Below, piece by piece: positions 1 through 13,600 of a stretch of 64,000 nucleotides of DNA. The first letter of the stretch is position 1. Every line of letters starts with the position of its first letter. Source of the DNA: Auanema rhodensis (Eukaryota; Animalia; Nematoda); NCBI GenBank assembly GCA_964057225.1, contig OZ059899.1, positions 4,402,001-4,466,000 on the forward strand, read 5' to 3'. Position numbers and translations under genes: made by a program. The notes under the pieces are model-generated. The model had not been told where the DNA came from. It ran no database searches and saw nothing but the letters and a program-made list of their open reading frames with translations.

Positions 1-16
1 AAACCAAAACTACTGT

Positions 17-88
17 TGGAGATATGGGGAATCGAACCCCAGACTTCTCGCATGCAAAGCGAGCGCTCTACCCCTGAGCTATATCCCC
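17..88 (-). tRNA. tRNA-Ala(TGC) copy 1
   Basis: Minus strand reads GGGGATATAGCTCAGGGGTAGAGCGCTCGCTTTGCATGCGAGAAGTCTGGGGTTCGATTCCCCATATCTCCA (72 nt). It forms a cloverleaf with anticodon arm CTCGC-TTTGCAT-GCGAG, the G3:U70 Ala identity pair and a GTTCGATTC B box. No CCA tail is encoded. Confidence 0.97.
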
Positions 89-247
89 ACATTCGACAAA
101 ATATATGACTGTGAGTTTGTTCAAACTTGAAGAACCTCTTGATCAAAAATTTTAGTTGTGAATATTAATTTCCTAATCTAATTTTTCTTTCAATCATTTT
201 GTAAAATTCCTGAAAAAAAAAATATAAAAGTAAAGAACTTGAAGAAT

Positions 248-257
248 AAAACCAAAA
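248..257 (-). terminator. Pol III terminator (TTTTGGTTTT), present in every tRNA unit; copy 2 shown
   Basis: On the minus strand the tRNA 3' end is followed by ACAGTAG and then TTTT-GG-TTTT. Confidence 0.7.
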
Positions 258-264
258 CTACTGT

Positions 265-336
265 TGGAGATATGGGGAATCGAACCCCAGACTTCTCGCA
301 TGCAAAGCGAGCGCTCTACCCCTGAGCTATATCCCC
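265..336 (-). tRNA. tRNA-Ala(TGC) copy 2
   Basis: Identical to copy 1. Confidence 0.97.
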
Positions 337-511
337 AAATTCGACAGAATATATGACTGTGAGTTTGTTCAAACTTGAAGAACCTCTTGATCAAAAATTT
401 TAGTTGTGAATATTAATCTCCTAATCTAATTTTTGTTTCAATCATTTTGTAAATCTCTTGAAAAAAATATAGAAAAGTAAAGAACTTGAAGAATAAAACC
501 AAAACTACTGT

Positions 512-583
512 TGGAGATATGGGGAATCGAACCCCAGACTTCTCGCATGCAAAGCGAGCGCTCTACCCCTGAGCTATATCCCC
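512..583 (-). tRNA. tRNA-Ala(TGC) copy 3
   Basis: Identical to copy 1. Confidence 0.97.
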
Positions 584-759
584 ACATTCGACAGAATATA
601 TGACTGTGAGTTTGTTCAAACTTGAAGAACCTCTTGATCAAAAATTTTGGTTGTGAATATTAATTTCCTAATCTAATTTTTCTTACAATCATTTTGTAAA
701 TCTCCTGAAAAAAAATATAGAAAAGTAAAGAACTTGAAGAATAAAACCAAAACTACTGT

Positions 760-831
760 TGGAGATATGAGGAATCGAACCCCAGACTTCTCGCATGCAA
801 AGCGAGCGCTCGACCCCTGAGCTATATCCCC
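760..831 (-). tRNA. tRNA-Ala(TGC) copy 4, variant (possible pseudogene)
   Basis: Two substitutions: 770 g>a (a T-stem G:C becomes G:U) and 812 t>g (GGTAGAGC becomes GGTCGAGC, losing the conserved D-loop A21 in the A box). Confidence 0.85.
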
Positions 832-1007
832 ACATTTGACAGAATATATGACTGTGAGTTTTTTCAAACTTGAAGAAGCTCTTGATCAAAAATTTTAGTT
901 GTAAATATTAATCTCCTAATCTAATTTTTGTTTCAATCATTTTGTAAAATTCCTGAAAAAAAATATATAAAAGTAAAGAACTTGAAGAATAAAACCAAAA
1001 CTACTGT

Positions 1008-1079
1008 TGGAGATATGGGGAATCGAACCCCAGACTTCTCGCATGCAAAGCGAGCGCTCTACCCCTGAGCTATATTCCC
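1008..1079 (-). tRNA. tRNA-Ala(TGC) copy 5, variant
   Basis: 1076 c>t changes G4 to A, giving an A4:C69 acceptor-stem mismatch next to the G3:U70 identity pair. Confidence 0.85.
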
Positions 1080-1255
1080 ACATTCGACAGAATATATGAC
1101 TGTGAGTTTGTTCAAACTTGAAGAACCTCTTGATCAAAAATTTTAGTTGTGAATATTAATTTCCTAATCTAATTTTTCTTTCAATCATTTTGTAAAATTC
1201 CTGAAAAAAAATATATAAAAGTAAAGAACTTGAAGAATAAAACCAAAACTACTGT

Positions 1256-1327
1256 TGGAGATATGGGGAATCGAACCCCAGACTTCTCGCATGCAAAGCG
1301 AGCGCTCTACCCCTGAGCTATATCCCC
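1256..1327 (-). tRNA. tRNA-Ala(TGC) copy 6
   Basis: Identical to copy 1. Confidence 0.97.
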
Positions 1328-1502
1328 ACATTAGACAGAATATATGACTGTGAGTTTGTTCAAACTTGAAGAACCTCTTGATCAAAAATTTTAGTTGTGA
1401 ATATTAATCTCCTAATCTAATTTTTGTTTCAATCATTTTGTAAATCTCTTGAAAAAAATATAGAAAAGTAAAGAACTTGAAGAATAAAACCAAAACTACT
1501 GT

Positions 1503-1574
1503 TGGAGATATGGGGAATCGAACCCCAGACTTCTCGCATGCAAAGCGAGCGCTCTACCCCTGAGCTATATCCCC
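1503..1574 (-). tRNA. tRNA-Ala(TGC) copy 7
   Basis: Identical to copy 1. Its upstream flank is interrupted by an LTR at 1649. Confidence 0.97.
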
Positions 1575-1648
1575 ACATTCGACAAAGTTAATGACTGTGA
1601 GTTTGTTCAAACTTGAAGAACCTCTTAATCAAAAATTTTAGTTGTGAA

Positions 1649-1948
1649 TGTCGCTTCGGCGAAGGCATTCCGTGTGATAGTTTTCCGCTGAGATTCGAAT
1701 AACAAATAATCAGTGGTAGAATGCTTTATTAAAGAGAAAGTTAACAATATCAACAAAATATAGATCGTCTATACTCCGTTGAAGTAAGTTGAGGTATATC
1801 GTATTTTCCGATCCCAAAGATGAAGATATGGGAAGGCGGGCCGAAAAGTACAATCTGAAATAGACAAAGTAAAGGAAAACGATAAAAACAAAACTGAAAT
1901 GGAACAAAACATAGAAAAAAGGATAAAAAATAATCGCTAACCGCGACA
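1649..1948 (-). repeat. 3' LTR (300 bp) of the BEL/Pao element
   Basis: Bounded by 6 bp terminal inverted repeats TGTCGC...GCGACA. It begins exactly where the tRNA repeat breaks, has AATAAA on the minus strand at 1725-1730, and is preceded by a PPT-like tract. There is no partner LTR in the window to confirm it. Confidence 0.85.
1725..1730 (-). promoter_or_regulatory. Polyadenylation signal in the LTR
   Basis: AATAAA on the element's sense strand, ~76 nt before the LTR end. Confidence 0.55.
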
Positions 1949-1958
1949 CTGCCGCCGC
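1949..1958 (-). promoter_or_regulatory. Polypurine-tract-like plus-strand primer site
   Basis: Minus-strand GCGGCGGCAG directly abuts the TGT of the LTR, the expected position, and is G-rich like BEL/Pao PPTs. Confidence 0.65.
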
Positions 1959-1960
1959 AG

Positions 1961-2431
1961 CTAAGCCATTGGCCTTTTGCGACGTTGTCCGTCGCATAAT
2001 GACCCATGATGCTTATCAGAGTTGCATTTGTAGCAGTTAGTGCTACAGGGATGCTCGTGTAGAGCCGATAAGCATCGTAAGCATAATTTCAATTGATGAG
2101 CGCGGATTCCACGCTCCATAACAGATGAATAGATGGGACAATTGCCTGTGCGGTGACCATCAGTAGTCACTTGATCGCAAAATAGGCAGGTTTTCGTTGG
2201 TTGCGTTTGTAATCGAATCAAATTCTGATTTTCATTCAGAATTTTCATAGCTTCAGAAATGATTCTGAAGTGATTGTCCAAATACTCACTCATGTATTGG
2301 AACTTTCGATTTAAACGATTTTCAACGAGAACAAGAGTTCGAATAGAGGTAGGAAGGTTAGAATAGGAAGGATCTTTCAATTCTTCCTCAAAAGATGGTT
2401 CATTATGAACTGTAATAGAATCAGAATGCAT
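1961..2431 (-). CDS. 3' accessory ORF with Gag-like Cys/His zinc knuckles
   Basis: A predicted helical or coiled-coil segment is followed by CLFC-x6-H-x4-CP, LCLRCL-x3-H-x3-C and CYKC-x4-HH-x3-C, resembling the triple knuckles of BEL/Pao Gag. The first ATG is at 2431; the ORF-track start at 2464 is TTG. Confidence 0.8.
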   Translation of the reverse strand: MHSDSITVHNEPSFEEELKDPSYSNLPTSIRTLVLVENRLNRKFQYMSEYLDNHFRIISEAMKILNENQNLIRLQTQPTKTCLFCDQVTTDGHRTGNCPIYSSVMERGIRAHQLKLCLRCLSALHEHPCSTNCYKCNSDKHHGSLCDGQRRKRPMA

Positions 2432-2511
2432 GACAACAAATAATTTCAAAAATGAGGATAACAATGCTTATATAGTAAGATTTTTAAGGATAGTACGGAA
2501 TTAGTTCAATG

Positions 2512-5500
2512 TTAAAATCTTCTATCAAAACAAAGATTTCTAAGAATAAAGAAAAACTTGGTTGTTGTATCTATTATGATTTTAATAGTACGGAAAGCTG
2601 TGATCAAGAAAAAATAAATGGCTGGAGTACAACCTAGGTATCCCAAAAAACATATGATGATCAGAAAAACAACGCAGATTGAAAACATCATCCAGTGTTC
2701 TTTAAAAAGTTTCAAAAAAGGAATTATGTCAGGTATTATAACTGAATTCTGATTTGAATGAATTTCATTTGGTTCATTAGTAGATGAATTAAAATATAAT
2801 TGTCCCGTTACAATTATATCAATTTTTTCATGATTACATTTAGTATGACAAACTTCATTTATAATTGAATTATCTCTTTTAATATTGATATTTGTAATTT
2901 CATTGAAGGGTGAACATTTAATCATGAATACATCTTTTGAACACTCGATCGGTATCCATGTTTCTTTAGATGACATACAAGAAAACAATGCAGATGCACC
3001 CTGCCCACAGGAATAACATCCGGAGAGACTGATCAATAAGGGACGACAAGGTATATCATAGGAAAATGTATTACTGTCATATAAAAGTTCAGAATCAATT
3101 GAAACTGTAGTTTCATCAGACTGAGTTCGAAAAGTTAAGGATGTATCGGGTTTATAGATTGTCTCCGTGTTTGCCATATACGGAGGTAAAATATGAGAAA
3201 AATGTGTGAAATTATGTTGTGGACATATACAGCCAGCAACATCATTATTGATTTTGTTACAAGTACAATCGATAACCGTTGTACATCTTGAAAAATTGTC
3301 GGAAGTGTCTGCCTTCGAAATACATTGTACCATAAATGGAAAATGTGGTTCAACAGCAAAGATTTGATTGTTTGAAGCAACAAAATAATAATTATGAAGT
3401 GGAGTAGGAGGTTTGTCTTGTGTATTGATCGTCATATTGAAAAAAGAGTAATTCATCTTCAAATATGGTGGAATTGTGATATTATAAATATTTTTATCTT
3501 TAACAATATGTGTTGTAATTTCAAAAGTTGAAGATGTTGTCCAATCTTCACATTTAAACACTTCAAATATGTCGTCCGAAGTAGGTACATGTTCTAATTT
3601 GTAGAAAAGACAAGGGTTTTCCCAAAATGTCAAACAACGCCATATATGTGCTGAAGACCGGACACATTTGGATTGTGTTGGATAATTATATGGTTCGAAT
3701 TCAGAAATACGAGAGCGATGATTCATAGTTTCACAAGTTTGATCACAAGATCCCATATGAGCACATCGAAAATCAACAGTTAGTTTAGGCAAAGTAGCCT
3801 TTGTAAAAAATTTTGTGGTTTTCTTACATTCATAACTTGTATATAATTTTCGAATTTGAATATAACCAATAGAATGATTTTTAAATTTTATATCCAGGCA
3901 TAAATCTTTAACTCCAGGAGAAAAAACTATTTGATCACTATATTGGTGATAACATTGAGTACGATTCAGACAATGTGTAGAAACCGAATGAATAACGTGA
4001 TGATCGGTACAAGCAGTAGCATTATTAATCAGAAATATCGTTAGTATACTGATAATTGATAATCGAGAACCTCTTTTCCAAAATGGAGGATATAATTTAG
4101 GTTCTATATGTGGAATATTCTCAGATGAAGTTGGAGGAGGTTCAATAACTCCTAATTCAATATCATTCTGTTCCGGAGTATGAGGTCTAAGTGTGAAAAA
4201 AGAAGATATGTAACGAATAGTATTAGACCAGGAATTATATCGATATTGATGGAATCCTATGCGTATACAACAACAAAGGATGCCAAATAAACAACAAAGT
4301 GGTAAGAACAATGACCACATGGCAAGATGAGGAGCACAATGTGGGTTTCCAAGCAAATGTATGGATAAAAACTTTGCCTCATCACATACTACAGAATTTG
4401 CAGATGCTACGGGTAAAAATATCGATATTATTGTAAAAATTAAAATTGCAGACGTCATTGCTGATTTGAAATTCTTTCGCGAAGCGTATGTGATGTGATC
4501 CCGTAAAGGTAAGGTGCGAACACGTTTTTCGTTTGTTTCAGTAGATGGTTTTACGTCGTTTTGGTCAATGGTAGGCAAAATTATGGTTTGTTTTGCTTTA
4601 CTTGTGTTTTTCTTTTGTAATTTTTTACGATTATCGTCAGGCGTATGACCTGGACCCCATAATTGTAATTCAGCTTCTTCCTCAAGGATCGGATTATGTA
4701 TCGAAGAAATTTTGGACGTAGGTATGTAAATTTTTTGAGGATTATTAATATCTATTGGTTCAGGACATGTAACCACATTGTTCGTTTCATGGATTGAAGG
4801 TACAGGTGAGTTTGATCTTATAATATATTCCTGTATTGGTTGAGCATCAAGGTTCATCATATCCGAAGCAGATCCTACCTTCAAAGACAATGAAGTGTCT
4901 TCGGAAGGAGTAGATCGAGGAATTGATGTCATATCAGGTAAAACACTTCGTAATTCAAGTGGATATAGATGATTTAAGGAACGAGATATGATGTTCCCAG
5001 CTGGAGTGAGAACTTTAGCTGTACGAATGAATCCATCAGAACTACTTATAAGTTCTGTGATTCGACCAAGTTTCCATTGACCACGAGGTAAGTTATCGTT
5101 ATGTATAACTACAATTTCACCAATATTAGGTTTATTGGCATTTGCTGAAGGTTGTTTTCGGGAATGTTTGTATATATCACGAATATATATCAAATATTCT
5201 GTTTGAAATTTATCCCAAAACATCGTAGCTGCATCAGAAGTAAGTTGTAAAGTTTCTAATGCTTGTTCAACGTTTTGTATTACAGGAATATCAATGGAAT
5301 TATTATAAACTCGAGAACCACAATCATCCGGTAGGGAAAGAACAAGACCAGGCGAAATGAAATCGACAGGACGAATAGGTACGTGATTTATATTATTTGG
5401 ATCTGGATGTGTTAAAGGCCTTGTGTTAATGACTGCTTCAATTTTGACAATTAAAGTTAATAATTCATCAAATGTTAATTTATTTCTTTGTATTGCCTTT

Positions 5501-6043
5501 TTCATTGCATTTTTAGTAATTCCCACCATTCTTTCCCAAGAACCTCCTTTCCATGGAGACTTAGGTGTGTTAAAGAGCCAATTTATGTTATTTTTGGCTA
5601 GATGGACTACAATATCAGCTGGGGTGAAATTAAATTCAGCTGATTTTTGTATTGTCTCAATTAATTGAGCTCCGAGAATAAAATTACCCCCACAATCACT
5701 TCGCATTGTGGTTGGTAAACCTCGTCGGGCTATGAAACGAGTGAAAGCGTTCATAAATGAAGTCGCTGTTTGATCATAGACCATTTCAAGATGAATGGCA
5801 CGTATGGTTAAGCAAGTAAAAAGACATACATAGACCTTATGTCCACTTTTAAGCATAATAGGTCCAAATAAGTCGCAACCAGTGTTAAGAAATGGTTTAG
5901 TTAATATCACTCTATCTTTAGGCAATGAAAGCATATCAGGAGTGCCATATGGTAAAGATTGATATTTATTGCATAAATGACATTTCTTTAAAGTTTGTTT
6001 TATAATTGCTGCAGCGCGAGCAATAAAATAAGTTTGACGAAAA
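2512..6043 (-). CDS. C-terminal part of the BEL/Pao polyprotein: integrase + linker + envelope (reduced Gn, phlebovirus G2/Gc-like class II fusogen)
   Basis: Zn-finger remnant CHLC; DDE core GCDLFGP / RSDCGGNF / PWKGGSWERMVG; INTRPL; BEL-type IN tail FWDKFQTEYL...WKLGRI...RSLNHLYPLE (ends ~4952). Hydrophobic signal/TM segments follow. Gc starts at NATA|C (~4011) with RCAHMGSC, CLFY, FKCEDW and LSGCYSCGQGA, and ends in a C-terminal TM. There are no stops across ~1175 codons and no native start. Confidence 0.92.
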
Positions 6044-7562
6044 CATCCATCATAGTGGAAGAACAAACACCAGTTACTGCTAAAAAGGTACGCTCCTCTA
6101 ATTCAAATAAAAATAAGAAAAATAAAAATAAAAACTCAAGCAAATCGGACGCATCTCTCTCTCTGTCCATCCCTGAACCAACAGTTTCACCTTCAGTAGC
6201 CACTACTAGTGCAGGCGGTTTACAAACTTTTAAAAACATAGTTTCTGATCTCTTCAATCGTTCACCAAAAGATCGAAACTTGAACACCAGCCACACGAAT
6301 AGATACTCGTCGGTTCCAAACATTAATTTATCTCCCATACAACCACCCGAACATACACATCTTGCTATTACTGATAACCAAACTTCAACCCCAATTTTAC
6401 CAAATACAACAACAGGAAGTTCAAAAGCACCAAACCAACCCAGCCGCTCAGTACACACAACCCCTGTGTCTGAAAACTCATTAACAACAGGCAGAGTGAT
6501 AAAAATGCCATCTGCCCGTACAAGTAATATGGCAACTGAACCTTCTTTACCTGGGGCAGGGAAAACTACCATAGCGCAAGCCTTGTTATCACCCTACTGC
6601 CCAACTTATGATGGCAGTCGCAACTTTCGAGATTACACGGCTAAATTCAACCTATTTGCCAACGCTGTAGGTCTGGTAATCCCGGAGAGATTAGCCCTCC
6701 TACCTTTGCTTCTTAAAAACGAAGCAGCGGAAGAAGCGTACAGCAAGTACCTGAACAATTAAAAACCACCGGTTCATGGAATGACCTGTTAAGAGCTTTA
6801 ACATCTAAGCTGTGTCCTGAATATAATCAGGACCCCGCGCTGATCAATCTCCAAAATACAACCCAAGGGGATCTGACAATTGACGCTTACGCTCAATCAC
6901 TGAGAACGATTGCACTAAGCGCTTTTGCCACGGATGACCCTCACAAAGATCACATATTAAGATCAACTTTCCTCAGAGGACTGAAAAATACTCTGAAACC
7001 AGCTGTGATTCGAGCGAAGCCAAAATCCTTCACGGATGCGATTGAGGCTGCTCGCTGGGAAGAATCAATAATGAACCAGACAACAGACACGCAGTCCATG
7101 CTAGTCAATGCTGTAAACAAAGCACTAGCTCCTTTCGCGCGCACAAACGAGAGACGAGATAACCGAAATTTTGACCGTAATCATCCACGTGATAACCAAA
7201 ACAATAAAAATTATCATAATTATCAAAATTATCAGAAAAATAAAAACTTTTCAAAATATAATAACAACCAAAATCGTAACGGCTCTTTTGCTAATTATCG
7301 CCGTAACAATAATTATGAACGAAATTCGGGACGATTTAATAACAACTGGCATTCAAACAATTTTAATCCTTCAAACAATAATAGAAGAGGAAGGACTAAT
7401 GAACATAACGGACAAAGAAGAATCCATTTTAACAATCAAAGAGATCAATCAAGAGGACGAGATAGAAGCACACCACGAATTAACTCTGTGACCCTTTCAC
7501 CGTTATCACTAACGGTTGTAATGGCAATCACAGTAGCAATTCTCCTGCCATGTGTAACTTCA
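6044..7562 (+). pseudogene. gag: gag (S/T/P-rich N-terminus, retrotransposon capsid, Asn/Arg-rich tail, env signal peptide) with a 1-nt frameshift at ~6740
   Basis: Frame 1 CPTYDGSRNFRDYTAKFNLFANA...LLKNEAAEEAY continues in frame 3 from 6741 as QQVPEQLKTTGSWNDLLRALTSKL...TTQGDLTIDAYAQSLRTIA...FLRGLKNTLKPAVIRAKPKSFTDAIEAARWEE. This matches Ty3/gypsy capsid hallmarks (PxFxG, W..L...L, MHR-like Q...I..Y...L, F..GL, P.S...AI..A). Confidence 0.82.
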
Positions 7563-10500
7563 TATCAAATTTGCACAAAAGCAACTGGAGGAGCCTTATT
7601 AGTTCCACCAGTAGTAAAGAAATGTAAATTAACAGAAACAAATCATGTGCTACGTACACAAATCCATCTATACACGCGAAACCACACGGCACACGAGTGG
7701 GACGCGTGGCGCTGCTCGAAGGAAGTACACAAGCTGTGTGTACGCGATTTGTTATTTCTCCGCGACACAAACAGAACAATCGATGAGGTGCAGCCTATAG
7801 CGGCGCACGAGTGCAGGCAGGCGATTCGCGATCGCAAATGGAATAACATGGAGCTGGAGAGAATCGATAGTATAGCACAAGCAACCCCAGAGCCCTCCTA
7901 TGATCCGGCGCGCGCGTTTAGCCGCGACGAGTGCGAGGAGCGGCCGCGTTTAGTACTAGAGCGCGGAGTCATGACCCGCATGCCCGATGATACAATATTA
8001 TCCAATTTAATACTAAACACTGAAGGTTGTAGTGCTCATCATGGTAATTGCAAATCAAATACATCAATAATTATATGGGATCCCCAAACATCGGATTCCC
8101 GTTGTAATTATATTGATATGCATTACTACGATGCTATAATAAGCAAAGAAACTATTTTGATTCCAAGTACACAATCAGCGCTTATCCTTTCGAGTAAAAT
8201 AACACCAAAACCAATTGCATCCTGCTTTAGACAACCAGCATTCCATACAACATCAGGAAATTATATAACATTCCCCAAATATCCTAATGATAACAATATC
8301 ACACTCCTAATTGAACGAGAATTTAAGAAATTGCTGTTCAAAAGACCTAAACGCGCAACTTCTACAAAATGCTCATTCCCATTCGATCAGGATAGAATAA
8401 ATGAAGTTGAAGATTTTGAAACGTACACGCTTCGAATTTGCCAATATCCATTTTTAATACCACTTATGAGTAATCCAGGAATTACACAAATTATTCCTCT
8501 AATTAAAGGAAGACGTATGGTAGACACTACATATTCCTTGAAAGAATGGATAATAGCCCATCGTGAAAATTTTGAATTTTTCTTTAAAATTCAAATTTAT
8601 GAGAAATCTTTAAGACATTTTCTCAAACAATATGATTTCCGTGATAAAGACGAAGCCATTTTACAATATGTTGCTCAAAGAGAATTAGCTTTAGCTACTA
8701 AAGCTGGAATATCTTATTTAACATCCAGGCAACTTCTTCAACAAATATCAGATCGTTTGACCGTTATTGAATTTGATCGGTTAATTCGTACAAAAGAAGG
8801 CACTTATCGAGAACGTGATGAAACTATTGCTCTTGATTTAGCCAATACACCAGTTATAATTGAAGACAAATTAACAGTTCCATCAAGACAAGAAATATTA
8901 AAAGCATTCGTAAAAATGCCACCAATAAGGAAACAATTATTAACTGATCAAGAAGAAAGAAACAGCAAATTTATAAAAGATACAATTGACCTTGTACATG
9001 AGCTAAAAACTCTCGTTACGCTTAGAAGAAATAAAACAGCAGCTGATATTGATGACATAAAATTTATAAACCTTCCATCTTCACGAATGTTTGTACTTGA
9101 TACGGATAAATTGTTCTATGACATCAAGAATAATTTTGGAATACCAATTGGACCACATCCCAAGCTCATAGAGCCCAACAACATCTCTAAGGACTTATTA
9201 TTGGAAATATTTTTACCACTACTAAACGATAATATTTTGCCTAATACATCTAGTAGAATATCATCAAAACAGTTAAAAAGATTAATGACAGAGAAAATCC
9301 AACTTAAATCGTTGCAAACCACGACGCGTGCGCCAAGCAACGCGGCAGGCGGCGCGGCCGAGATGGCAGCCCTCCCTATAATCGATCGTGAGGCGCTGAT
9401 CACAACAGATCCCGCAATACTGCCGCAAACATCTACAAGCCCTCGGGCAGCCGCAGCAACTACCGCGCGCGCGCCTTCATCGATGGCCCAGCCCGAAACA
9501 ACGGCGCGCCATACAACCGCAACAACAACCGCGCGCGCAACAATATCGACCCGCGCGCCGCCAACTACTATTCTCTACGCTGTTCATCAAGATCAACAAA
9601 TTCCAATAATGGAAGAAACTACATATACACCAATATCTTTGATTCGTAAACATAGAGCATCATCAACGCCTACAGCCACCGATATAGAGTCTGTACAGGC
9701 TAATGCTCAATACATTGCCACAAAAGTTGACTCTGAACAACAGTTTCGCCAAAACATAACAAGCAGAATTGCACAAGATCATTTGCAATATGCTACAACT
9801 ATGATTCAAGAAGAACTGCAGAAACATTTTAAAGAGTCATACGAATCAATATGTGAGATCCAAAATAGGTATCTTGAATTATGGAGATCAATTTTACAAA
9901 TTGAACCAACAATAGCTATGCGTACAATACTGGGAAGAGAAGATATAGCCGCAAGATTTGTAGGCAGCGAGATATTACATATACATGTTTGCCCGGTAGT
10001 ATTACAAAAGACTATATATCACAATCACACTGTGAATGGCACATGTTATCTCGAAACCCCAGTATTAACACAAGAAGGACAATTACTGTTTGCCGCACCA
10101 GGATCGAAAGACCTATTACCTCATGGTAAAGAAATTAACTGTGATCATGTACCAACAGACGTATGGTCAACAGACGGTGAATGGAAAGGAATTAATGGTA
10201 CTGTAGACGTCAGTCTCATATCCATGTGGGACGGACTTCATCATGAAAAGATCACGCCATTAAAATTCACCGGAGCACACTTATACACCAACTTATCATC
10301 TCGAGTGTACTCAATGACAACAGCCATTGCTTATGGTGCTAGTTTAGCATCGATTCGTCAAAATCACGTGCTTCACACAATTCATCATGATCCAAAAATA
10401 TCATCAGCATTCAGCATATTGAAGAAAAGTAGTGATTACATCTCCAAAGCCAATGAATTCACCAAAAGTACATGGAATTCATTTGTCGATACAATAGCAG

Positions 10501-10642
10501 GAACGATTGAACGAACACTCATCACTATCGGAGCAATTACAATTATTGTAGTTATACTGATCGTACTAGCCTTCGTTGCGAAAATATATTTCTTCAAACC
10601 AATAGGCATGCAAGTTATGCATATCGAACTCCGAGATCAAAC
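6044..10642 (+). mobile_element. Internal fragment of a second LTR retroelement (Ty3/gypsy-type gag + class III env), truncated at both ends
   Basis: Capsid motifs are followed by a viral-type glycoprotein. No LTR, PBS or pol is visible. It is bounded by the BEL element on the left and the satellite on the right. Confidence 0.8.
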
Positions 10643-10661
10643 CAGATTTGCGCTAGCTTAA
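7563..10661 (+). CDS. env: Envelope glycoprotein, class III fusogen-like (herpesvirus gB / chuvirus G related), in frame with the gag C-terminus
   Basis: Signal peptide LTVVMAITVAILLPCVTS|YQIC is followed by a Cys-rich ectodomain (WRCSK, HECRQA, GC..HGNC....IIW) and furin site RPKR at 8343-8354. The gB-like core is ICEIQN...ILQIEPTIAMRTILGREDIAARFVGSEILHIHVCPVV (9891-10001), then GTCY. There are multiple N-x-S/T sequons and a TM at ~10516-10580. The last 5 codons and the stop come from the satellite. Confidence 0.8.
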   Translation, partial: YQICTKATGGALLVPPVVKKCKLTETNHVLRTQIHLYTRNHTAHEWDAWRCSKEVHKLCVRDLLFLRDTNRTIDEVQPIAAHECRQAIRDRKWNNMELERIDSIAQATPEPSYDPARAFSRDECEERPRLVLERGVMTRMPDDTILSNLILNTEGCSAHHGNCKSNTSIIIWDPQTSDSRCNYIDMHYYDAIISKETILIPSTQSALILSSKITPKPIASCFRQPAFHTTSGNYITFPKYPNDNNITLLIEREFKKLLFKRPKRATSTKCSFPFDQDRINEVEDFETYTLRICQYPFLIPLMSNPGITQIIPLIKGRRMVDTTYSLKEWIIAHRENFEFFFKIQIYEKSLRHFLKQYDFRDKDEAILQYVAQRELALATKAGISYLTSRQLLQQISDRLTVIEFDRLIRTKEGTYRERDETIALDLANTPVIIEDKLTVPSRQEILKAFVKMPPIRKQLLTDQEERNSKFIKDTIDLVHELKTLVTLRRNKTAADIDDIKFINLPSSRMFVLDTDKLFYDIKNNFGIPIGPHPKLIEPNNISKDLLLEIFLPLLNDNILPNTSSRISSKQLKRLMTEKIQLKSLQTTTRAPSNAAGGAAEMAALPIIDREALITTDPAILPQTSTSPRAAAATTARAPSSMAQPETTARHTTATTTARATISTRAPPTTILYAVHQDQQIPIMEETTYTPISLIRKHRASSTPTATDIESVQANAQYIATKVDSEQQFRQNITSRIAQDHLQYATTMIQEELQKHFKESYESICEIQNRYLELWRSILQIEPTIAMRTILGREDIAARFVGSEILHIHVCPVVLQKTIYHNHTVNGTCYLETPVLTQEGQLLFAAPGSKDLLPHGKEINCDHVPTDVWSTDGEWKGINGTVDVSLISMWDGLHHEKITPLKFTGAHLYTNLSSRVYSMTTAIAYGASLASIRQNHVLHTIHHDPKISSAFSILKKSSDYISKANEFTKSTWNSFVDTIAGTIERTLITIGAITIIVVILIVLAFVAKIYFFKPIGMQVMHIELRDQTRFALA

Positions 10662-13600
10662 AAATGCACCGAGATATCAACTGATATAAGTTCACACTTA
10701 TATTCTCGATTTTCACCCTGAAGAATTAATTTTTTCGTTGAATAACATTGTCCATCGTCTTTGCCTTGAAAAAAGGAATCTAAAAACATCTACTTTTTGC
10801 TAAATGATTTTGAAATTTTTCGAAAAAATTTTTGTCAAAATGTTTTTGGAAGCAATCTTGAGTGTACATGGAAACTCAACATACACTAATGCATCATTTT
10901 TCAAACAATCATAACTGATTTTTGTATTAAGCGTTTCTCAATGTAGTATAGTGCATTCGATGCGGATTTTTAAGCTGCGTCGATCTATGTTATCAGATTT
11001 GCGCTAGCTTAAAAATGCACCGAGATATCAACTGATATAAGTTCACACATATATCCTCGATTTTCACCCTGAAGAATGAATTTTTTCGTTGAATAACATT
11101 GTCCATCGTCTTTGTCTTGAAAAAAGGAATCTAAAAACATCTACTTTTTGCTAAATTATTTTGAAATTTTTCGAAAAAATTTTTGTCAAAATGTTTTTTG
11201 AAGCAATGTTGAGTGTACATGGAAACTCAACATACACTAATGCATCATTTTTCAAACGATCATAACTGATTTTTGTATTGAGCGTTTCTCAATGTAGTAT
11301 AGTGCATTCGATGCGGATTTTTAAGCTGCTTCGATCTGTGTTATCAGATTTGCGCTAGCTTAAAAATGCACCGAGATATCAACTGATATAAGTTCACACT
11401 TATATTCTCGATTTTCACCCTGAAGAATGAATTTTTTCGTTGAATAACATTGTCCATCGTCTTTGCCTTGAAAAAAGGAATCTAAAAACATCTACTTTTT
11501 GCTAAATGATTTTGAAATTTTTCGAAAAAATTTTTGTCAAAATGTTTTTGGAAGCAATCTTGAGTGTACATGGAAACTCAACATACACTAATGCATCATT
11601 TTTCAAACAATCATAACTGATTTTTGTATTAAGCGTTTCTCAATGTAGTATAGTGCATTCGATGCGGATTTTTAAGCTGCGTCGATCTATGTTATCAGAT
11701 TTGCGCTAGCTTAAAAATGCACCGAGATATCAACTGATATAAGTTCACACATATATCCTCGATTTTCACCCTGAAGAATGAATTTTTTCGTTGAATAACA
11801 TTGTCCATCGTCTTTGTCTTGAAAAAAGGAATCTAAAAACATCTACTTTTTGCTAAATTATTTTGAAATTTTTCGAAAAAATTTTTGTCAAAATGTTTTT
11901 TGAAGCAATGTTGAGTGTACATGGAAACTCAACATACACTAATGCATCATTTTTCAAACGATCATAACTGATTTTTGTATTGAGCGTTTCTCAATGTAGT
12001 ATAGTGCATTCGATGCGGATTTTTAAGCTGCTTCGATCTGTGTTATCAGATTTGCGCTAGCTCAAAAATGCACCGAGATATCAACTGATATAAGTTCACA
12101 CTTATATTCTCGATTTTCACCCTGAAGAATGAATTTTTTCGTTGAATAACATTGTCCATCGTCTTTGTCTTGAAAAAAGGAATCTAAAAACATCTACTTT
12201 TTGCTAAATTATTTTGAAATTTTTCGAAAAAATTTTTGTCAAAATGTTTTTTGAAGCAATGTTGAGTGTACATGGAAACTCAACATACACTAATGCATCA
12301 TTTTTCAAACGATCATAACTGATTTTTGTATTGAGCGTTTCTCAATGTAGTATAGTGCATTCGATGCGGATTTTTAAGCTGCTTCGATCTGTGTTATCAG
12401 ATTTGCGCTAGCTCAAAAATGCACCGAGATATCAACTGATATAAGTTCACACTTATATTCTCGATTTTCACCCTGAAGAATGAATTTTTTCGTTGAATAA
12501 CATTGTCCATCGTCTTTGTCTTGAAAAAAGGAATCTAAAAACATCTACTTTTTGCTAAATTATTCTGAAATTTTTCGAAAAAATTTTTGTCAAAATGTTT
12601 TTTGAAGCAATGTTGAGTGTACATGGAAACTCAACATACACTAATGCATCATTTTTCAAACGATCATAACTGATTTTTGTATTAAGCGTTTCTCAATGTA
12701 GTATAGTGCATTCGATGCGGATTTTTAAGCTGCGTCGATCCGTGTTATCAGATTTGCGCTAGCTTAAAAATGCACCGAGATATCAACAGATATATGTTCA
12801 CACTTATATCCTCGATTTTCACCCTGAAGAATTAATTTTTTCGTTGAAAAATATTGTCCATCGTCTTTGCCTTGAAAAAAGGAATCTAAAAACATCTACT
12901 TTTTGCTAAATTTATTTGAAATTTTTCGAAAAAATTTTTGTCAAAATGTTTTTGGAAGCAATGTTGAGTGTACATGGAAACTCAACATACACTAATGCAT
13001 CATTTTTCAAACGATCATAACTGATTTTTGTATTAAGCGTTTCTCAATGTAGTATAGTGCATTCGATGCGGATTTTCAAGCTGCGTCGATCTGTGTTATC
13101 AGATTTGCGCTAGCTTAAAAATGCACCGAGATATCAACTGATATAAGTTCACACTTGTATCCTCGATTTTCACCCTGAAGAATTAATTTTTTCGTTGAAT
13201 AACATTGTCCATCGTCTTTGCCTTGAAAAAAGGAATCTAAAAACATCTACTTTTTGCTAAATTATTCTGAAATTTTTCGAAAAAATTTTTGTCAAAATGT
13301 TTTTTGAAGCAATGTTGAGTGTACATGGAAACTCAACATACACTAATGCATCATTTTTCAAACGATCATAACTGATTTTTGTATTAAGCGTTTCTCAATG
13401 TAGTATAGTGCATTCGATGCGGATTTTTAAGCTGCGTCGATCCGTGTTATCAGATTTGCGCTAGCTTAAAAATGCACCGAGATATCAACAGATATATGTT
13501 CACACTTATATCCTCGATTTTCACCCTGAAGAATTAATTTTTTCGTTGAAAAATATTGTCCATCGTCTTTGCCTTGAAAAAAGAAATCTAAAAACATCTA

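What the first reader, a model, noticed from the sequence alone, without database searches (positions are those of the whole stretch)
1649..10642. Two endogenous viruses with different fusogen classes fused head-to-head between a tRNA array and a satellite
Seen: a 9 kb island holds a minus-strand BEL/Pao IN-env (class II, phlebovirus Gc-like) and a plus-strand gag-env (class III-like). They diverge from one junction at ~6043. Both have lost their 5' LTRs and RT, yet both env ORFs have no stops. Inference: the simplest explanation is a recent nested insertion followed by deletions that joined two tandem arrays. An alternative is a retained composite (capsid, integrase, Zn-knuckle protein, two fusogens) that acts as a small-RNA source or as co-opted fusogens.
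Basis: partly seen in the sequence, partly recalled or inferred. Interest (0 to 1): 0.7.

Follow-up and report, generated by a model that had tools for sequence, protein, structure and literature searches.

The report
Two broken worm retrotransposons joined together
Two cut-off pieces of known kinds of envelope-carrying jumping genes lie back to back between two repeat arrays in what is likely a nematode genome, most likely joined by chance deletions and likely non-functional, so this is probably an ordinary relic.

Summary
The anatomy is real. It consists of a tRNA-Ala array (1-1648), a minus-strand BEL/Pao piece (one LTR, a small zinc-knuckle ORF, integrase plus phlebovirus-Gc-like class II env), a junction at 6041, a plus-strand gag plus gB-like class III env, and a 351-bp satellite from 10643. 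The striking parts have ordinary explanations. Gag sits next to env because this family's natural order is gag-env-pol (17 of 23 homologs scanned; published for nematode elements), so pol was cut off downstream by the satellite. The stop-free env frames are expected from youth: the copies differ about 0.1% and 0.7% from their families, giving P(no stop) of 0.9 and 0.4-0.5. Gag carries a frameshift. Public runs hold both families, but 0 of 20 contigs in 4 runs cross the 6041 junction; contigs run on into other sequence on both sides. The two broken ends overlap by 1 and 2 bases. Best reading: a recent, probably private deletion product of two neighbouring insertions in repeat-rich DNA. Nesting is not supported. 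Long reads and RNA were not testable here. Side observations (a splice-site-like variant in DNA, a near-absent Gn domain, an optional accessory ORF) are more interesting than the junction itself.

The parts
1..1648 (-). Tandem array of tRNA-Ala(TGC) genes, 248-bp unit, cut in the spacer by the BEL LTR end
1649..1948 (-). Single 300-bp LTR of the BEL/Pao element (3' LTR by position), TG...CA ends with 6-bp inverted termini and one AATAAA
   Evidence: sequence; LTR status inferred from termini and position, since the second LTR is absent
1961..2431 (-). Small ORF (156 aa from ATG) with a Pao-type triple Cys-His box, between env and LTR; most of it (2009-2463) is missing in a second form of the family
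   Evidence: motif definition from PMC554778 passages; deletion joint in 4 of 4 runs (table 5); ESM Atlas nearest cluster unnamed, mostly Nematoda, score 0.93
2512..6041 (-). BEL/Pao integrase (cut inside the N-terminal zinc-binding part) in frame with env: very short Gn-like part, full Gc-like class II fusogen, C-terminal membrane anchor
6041..6041 (.). Junction of the two elements; one base belongs to both
   Evidence: contigs of both families match up to or from exactly 6041 and then run on into other sequence
6041..7487 (+). 5'-truncated Ty3/gypsy-type gag with a frameshift near 6742; capsid-like part followed by an Asn/Arg-rich basic stretch
   Evidence: Retrotrans_gag E=3e-4, Ty3_capsid E=4e-3, both below cut-off; table 4
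7488..10644 (+). gB-like class III env in frame with gag: signal-like segment, furin-like RPKR, about 450-residue low-confidence central insert, long central helix, membrane anchor; tail cut off
   Evidence: 45% identical to P0001
10643..64000 (+). 351-bp satellite, 152 copies about 95% alike; two bases overlap with the element; supplies the stop codon of the env frame

Best explanation
Truncated pieces of a BEL/Pao element with a class II env and of a Ty3/gypsy gag-env-pol element with a class III env meet at base 6041, and they were likely joined by chance deletions into a likely silent, non-functional relic. Steps: (1) a gag-env-pol element inserted in this repeat-rich region (inferred; it looks the older one). 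(2) A BEL element integrated into the tRNA array in the opposite orientation (the LTR end in the array spacer is seen directly). (3) A break-and-rejoin event removed both 5' ends, BEL's gag-PR-RT and whatever lay between (the 1-base overlap is seen; end joining is inferred). (4) A second event removed the plus element's pol and 3' LTR up to the satellite (the 2-base overlap is seen). With neither 5' LTR, no RT and a frameshifted gag, the island cannot move by itself. Its open env frames likely reflect youth, not selection.
For: Family order gag-env-pol: P0001 has gag-env-protease-RT start in one frame; 17 of 23 long homologs scanned have env before pol domains; PMC13524379 states that nematode errantiviruses are GAG-ENV-POL with gB-type env. 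Longer forms of both families exist: contigs run on past 6041 by 310-3192 letters in X1, X3, X8 and past 10644 by 129-1930 letters in 4 of 4 runs. Junction absent: 0 of 20 contigs in X2, X6, X7, X9 bridge 6041, although X9 kept a 17.6x variant beside a 4963x path. Divergence from family contigs: BEL 0-0.12%, plus element 0.57-0.80%. P(no stop by chance) is 0.90 and 0.41-0.50. The frameshift is not shared by 4 of 4 runs. Single-base homology is the signature of polymerase-theta end joining in C. elegans (PMC5068794 section 9).
Against: Contigs drop rare branches, so a single-copy or germline-only junction could be missed. No run matches the window's copy fully (best share 0.84), so the source isolate may not be among them. 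10 of 22 differences in the plus element are silent against 29% expected under neutrality (p=0.07), a weak lean towards past purifying selection. One- or two-base overlaps also arise often by chance. The order of events rests on divergence alone.
Confidence: 0.76

Rival explanations
1. Assembly artefact: a chimeric read or a mis-join links two multi-copy families and two arrays.
For: No contig bridges 6041 (0 of 20); none of the 32 pieces shown of 28,363 bridges 1649, 6041 or 10643; the setting is highly repetitive.
Against: Mis-joins usually use long shared repeats (general knowledge), whereas these joints share 1-2 bases. The 1649 joint is an exact LTR end. The copy carries its own substitutions and a frameshift, so it is not the collapsed majority form. 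Three separate joints would each have to be false.
Confidence: 0.12
2. True nesting: the gag-env-pol element inserted into the BEL integrase in the opposite orientation, then two deletions trimmed it.
For: Gives the same final layout and explains why two elements are adjacent without needing neighbouring insertions.
Against: No LTR end, primer site or target duplication is left at 6041. The supposedly younger inner element is about 6-fold more diverged from its family than the outer one (Fisher p 1e-5 to 3e-3 in 4 runs).
Confidence: 0.07
3. Retained composite: the island is kept as a small-RNA source against both families, or as co-opted fusogen genes, possibly in germline-restricted DNA.
For: Two open env frames; an intact triple Cys-His ORF; a weak excess of silent changes (p=0.07). 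The setting resembles the eliminated satellite and tRNA arrays of Auanema rhodense, and the closest protein comes from an Auanema species.
Against: Junction not seen in the runs laid. Both 5' LTRs are lost. Open frames are expected by chance. The class III env has lost its tail and sits behind a frameshift. The class II env has almost no Gn-like ectodomain.
Confidence: 0.05

Closest known systems
Nematode GAG-ENV-POL Ty3/gypsy elements (errantiviruses) with HSV-gB-type env (Chary and Hayashi, PMC13524379; Sacco et al. 2022 as cited there, not seen)
   Same: Gag directly followed in frame by a gB-like class III env; pol downstream in relatives (P0001 from Auanema sp. JU1783, 45% identity).
   Different: This copy lacks both LTRs, the gag start, the env tail and all of pol, and has a gag frameshift. 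The env has a central insert of about 450 residues that folds with low confidence.
Nematode belpaoviruses with phlebovirus-like env: Atlas virus of Ancylostoma ceylanicum and C. elegans Cer13 (PMC9094657)
   Same: Integrase and env in one frame, Gc-like class II fusogen with a C-terminal anchor (Atlas Gc 7a4a E=1e-19), LTR of similar size (300 vs 271 nt).
   Different: Gag, protease, RT and the 5' LTR are absent here. The Gn-like region is about 150 residues against 421 in Atlas. An extra triple Cys-His ORF lies between env and LTR.
Transposon relics in germline-restricted satellite and tRNA arrays of Auanema rhodense (bioRxiv 10.64898/2026.08.27.747507)
   Same: Large satellite block (351 bp, inside the reported 167-504 bp range) next to a tandem tRNA array, with transposon-derived ORFs between.
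   Different: 0 of 4 published FISH probes match the window. The repeat tables are in supplements that I could not see. Species and elimination status of this window are not established.

Membership tests
Belpaoviridae (BEL/Pao), nematode env-bearing type | LTR with TG...CA ends | tested here: met
   1649-1948, 6-bp inverted termini; only one LTR present
Belpaoviridae (BEL/Pao), nematode env-bearing type | BEL-type integrase with DDE residues and C-terminal DUF5641 | tested here: met
   DUF5641 E=7e-15; 35% identical over 376 aa to the Pao polyprotein P0002, acidic triad positions aligned
Belpaoviridae (BEL/Pao), nematode env-bearing type | Phlebovirus Gc-like env in frame after integrase | tested here: met
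   Phlebovirus_G2 E=2e-43; 11 of 11 PDB sequence hits are Atlas or phenuivirus glycoproteins
Belpaoviridae (BEL/Pao), nematode env-bearing type | RT placing it in the family (YVDN-type motif) and Gag with triple Cys-His box | not testable with these tools
   gag and RT are not in the window; the triple box occurs instead in the small 3' ORF
Atlas-type tandem Gn-Gc envelope | Full Gn-like ectodomain (421 residues in Atlas) before Gc | tested here: not met
   about 16 residues between the first two hydrophobic segments, about 150 before Gc; no Gn alignment to P0004; same short form in family contigs of X1, X3, X8
Nematode GAG-ENV-POL Ty3/gypsy errantivirus | gB-type class III env | tested here: met
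   model pLDDT 64, pTM 0.50; best rigid match HSV-1 prefusion gB Z 8.8, rmsd 7.0, 385 aligned
Nematode GAG-ENV-POL Ty3/gypsy errantivirus | Order gag-env-pol | tested here: met
   gag-env seen in the window; pol after env in the closest relative P0001 and in 17 of 23 homologs; this copy's own pol is absent
Nematode GAG-ENV-POL Ty3/gypsy errantivirus | Ty3/gypsy-type capsid Gag | tested here: inconclusive
   Retrotrans_gag and Ty3_capsid hits below curated cut-offs; homologs P0011, P0015, P0033 pass them
Nematode GAG-ENV-POL Ty3/gypsy errantivirus | RT/IN phylogeny, two LTRs and primer-binding site | not testable with these tools
   these parts are not in the window; no genome held
Co-opted (domesticated) fusogen gene | Fixed at one locus across isolates or species | tested here: not met
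   0 of 20 contigs in 4 runs bridge 6041; contigs can miss rare forms
Co-opted (domesticated) fusogen gene | Purifying selection after insertion | tested here: inconclusive
   10 silent of 22, expected 29%, p=0.07; too few sites for BEL (2 of 3)
Co-opted (domesticated) fusogen gene | Expression from a host promoter | not testable with these tools
   no RNA holder listed; no raw reads

The most novel reading that the evidence does not exclude
The island lies in germline-restricted, somatically eliminated DNA and is read through from the flanking arrays as a two-family trap. It would make small RNAs against both a class II-env and a class III-env endogenous virus: a nematode counterpart of a piRNA cluster, built by deletion inside eliminated repeats.
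Probability: 0.05. Interest if true: 0.65.

Novelty: new member of a known kind. Interest (0 to 1): 0.2.

Why it matters
As a locus it matters little: rearranged retrotransposon relics are expected in satellite-rich DNA. It does show that one genome, likely a nematode's, holds two recently active envelope-bearing families with unrelated fusogen classes, both multi-variant in public runs. That makes this organism useful for asking whether such elements are infectious. The BEL family's near-absent Gn domain, its optional zinc-knuckle ORF, and the gypsy family's splice-site-like DNA variant are testable features of those families.

Tried and rejected
No whole genome is held, so copy number and other junction copies could not be counted. 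No RNA holder listed; this says nothing on expression. Earlier findings: nothing by place, sequence or words. No LTR-length repeat pair inside the island and no island sequence in either array. Rfam gave only the 7 tRNAs in 1-12000. The small ORF had no homolog at E<=0.001 among near-length proteins and is not like Cer1 CERV as described in PMC10309623 passages. The idea that the 455-bp optional segment is an insertion with an 8-bp target duplication was rejected: the ORF runs on beyond it, and I saw no terminal inverted repeat by eye. 0 of 4 Auanema rhodense FISH probes match the window at up to 3 mismatches. No primer site for the array's tRNA (best 13 of 18) and no double nematode telomere hexamer (motif recalled) in the window. 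The 'longer' search for BEL relatives gave 3 distant hits only. Sacco et al. 2022 is not held. Searches for a published accessory ORF after env in nematode BEL elements and for spliced derivatives found none in this library; subscription papers are not covered.
Full report
Observation. The island lies between a tRNA-Ala(TGC) array (7 genes, 248-bp period) and a 351-bp satellite that fills 53,348 of the last 53,358 bases. On the minus strand are a 300-bp LTR (1649-1948, TG...CA, 6-bp inverted ends, one AATAAA), a 156-aa ORF with a Pao-type triple Cys-His box (motif as defined in PMC554778, passages seen), and an open frame 2512-6041. That frame holds a BEL-type integrase (DUF5641 E=7e-15; 35% identical to P0002) and a phlebovirus-Gc-like env (Pfam E=2e-43; 11 of 11 PDB hits are Atlas or phenuivirus glycoproteins). 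On the plus strand are a gag broken by a frameshift near 6742 and, in frame with its second half, an env. The env's model (pLDDT 64, pTM 0.50) matches herpesvirus gB by Foldseek (best E=2.5e-11, low TM-scores of about 0.15). The 7 of 48,161 chains with Z>=8 are all gB or rhabdovirus G. The tool warns that Z near 8 is middling for a long helical model, but four methods agree. So two fusogen classes are really present. The host is likely a nematode (inference from the closest protein, Auanema sp. JU1783, and a mostly nematode ESM Atlas cluster); I did not establish the species.

Gag next to env is the family's normal order. The one hit, P0001 (45% identity), reads gag, env, protease and the start of RT in one frame. 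One search found 283 env relatives and listed 150. I picked 30 long ones and scanned 23 of them: 17 have env before protease, RT, RNase H or integrase (env placed by Pfam, or for five by the match), 1 is a Pao pol-env, and 5 show no pol domain. PMC13524379 (abstract, outline and passages seen) states that nematode errantiviruses carry only gB-type env arranged GAG-ENV-POL, citing Sacco et al. 2022 (not held, not seen). BEL elements with Gc-like env are likewise known (PMC9094657, passages and section 6 seen). In the window the env is cut about 20 residues after its membrane anchor, and the satellite provides its stop.

The junctions. Eleven of 14 listed runs, from 3 studies, hold the stretch or part of it; the best share is 0.84. 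Laid on 1402-10993 (32 of 28,363 pieces shown), BEL contigs in X1, X3 and X8 match up to 6041 and run on for 3192, 310 and 546 letters unlike the window. Gypsy contigs in all four runs match to 10644 and run on for 129-1930 letters that are not satellite. I saw at most 30 of those onward letters, so that they encode pol is inferred from P0001. Laid on 5860-6094 with X2, X6, X7 and X9 (all 20 records listed), 0 of 20 records cross 6041. In every run one path ends there and another begins there, each going on into its own sequence. X9 kept a 17.6x variant beside a 4963x path, so low-depth forms can survive, but contigs cannot prove absence. The 1649 and 10643 joints were not tested at this resolution. 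Both elements claim base 6041, and element and satellite share 10643-10644: overlaps of 1 and 2 bases. This fits end joining of the kind described for C. elegans (PMC5068794, abstract and section 9 seen), though such short overlaps are common by chance. The 1649 joint is an exact LTR end in the array spacer, as expected for a true integration.

Age and selection. From the longest pieces shown, the window differs from family contigs by 0-0.12% in the BEL half and 0.57-0.80% in the gypsy half (Fisher p 1e-5 to 3e-3 per run). I left out X6 record 18 (25 differences, 12 gaps) as a different subfamily; including it would raise X6's BEL figure to about 1%. At these levels a stop-free frame is expected with probability 0.90 (BEL) and 0.41-0.50 (gypsy), so open frames are no sign of selection. 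One search showed 40 of 126 difference rows. I classed the 31 in ORFs and left out 9 in the LTR and arrays. Of 22 gypsy sites at which all four runs differ from the window, 10 are silent against 29% expected (one-sided p=0.07). This leans slightly towards purifying selection, which could equally date from the active lineage before insertion. The gag frameshift is not shared by 4 of 4 runs.

Mechanism. The most likely history (0.76) is two neighbouring insertions in opposite orientation, the gypsy element probably first, followed by one deletion that removed both 5' ends and another that removed pol and the 3' LTR up to the satellite. The result has no 5' LTR and no RT, and is likely inert. The rivals are an assembly artefact (0.12), true nesting (0.07; the divergence runs the wrong way and no LTR end remains at 6041) and a retained functional composite (0.05).

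Context. In Auanema rhodense, satellite blocks of 167-504-bp units and tandem tRNA arrays, with mostly silent transposon-derived genes, are germline-restricted (bioRxiv 10.64898/2026.08.27.747507; abstract, passages, sections 7, 11, 26 and part 2 of section 4 seen). The window looks like such DNA, which would explain weak purging and low read depth. But 0 of 4 published probes match, and the repeat tables are in supplements I could not see, so this is a lead only. Expression is untested.

Verdict. The features are real, both element kinds are known, and the junction is probably private and accidental. Interest 0.2. The family-level oddities listed under Noticed in passing deserve more attention than the fusion. 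My searches (listings only) found no description of them in this library.

Noticed in passing
window 6087/6088: In 4 of 4 runs a second DNA form of the gypsy family leaves the window sequence at 6087, exactly at a canonical-looking splice donor, at depth of the same order as the window-like form (417 vs 341, 66 vs 135, 347 vs 463, 1796 vs 3142). The following letters are not in the window. Possibly a spliced, reverse-transcribed non-autonomous derivative; a recombinant subfamily is the alternative.
   Followed up: partly
window 2009-2463: A 455-bp deletion between 8-bp direct repeats removes most of the triple Cys-His ORF in a form present in 4 of 4 runs, at depth similar to the form with the ORF (table 5). 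The accessory ORF seems optional within the family.
   Followed up: partly
window 4011-4470 (minus strand): The Gn-like part of the class II env is almost absent (about 16 residues between the first two hydrophobic segments), and family contigs in X1, X3, X8 show the same short form without gaps. Atlas has 421 residues there.
   Followed up: partly
window 10643-12046: At the satellite edge, units 1 and 3 and units 2 and 4 score 100% identical (rounded), against about 95% on average: a recent 702-bp duplication next to the junction.
   Followed up: no
whole window: Satellite block plus tandem tRNA array plus transposon relics resembles germline-restricted DNA described in Auanema rhodense; 0 of 4 published probes match and the supplements could not be seen.
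   Followed up: partly
window about 8350-9670: The class III env has a central region of about 450 residues, mostly helical then Thr/Ala/Pro-rich, with pLDDT mostly under 60. The helical part is shared with P0001. Function not examined.
   Followed up: no
window 1674-1800; 3854-4701: Run X1 holds an LTR variant with many differences at 1674-1700, and X6 holds a diverged BEL-related contig (25 differences, 12 gaps over 848 bases): subfamilies exist.
   Followed up: no
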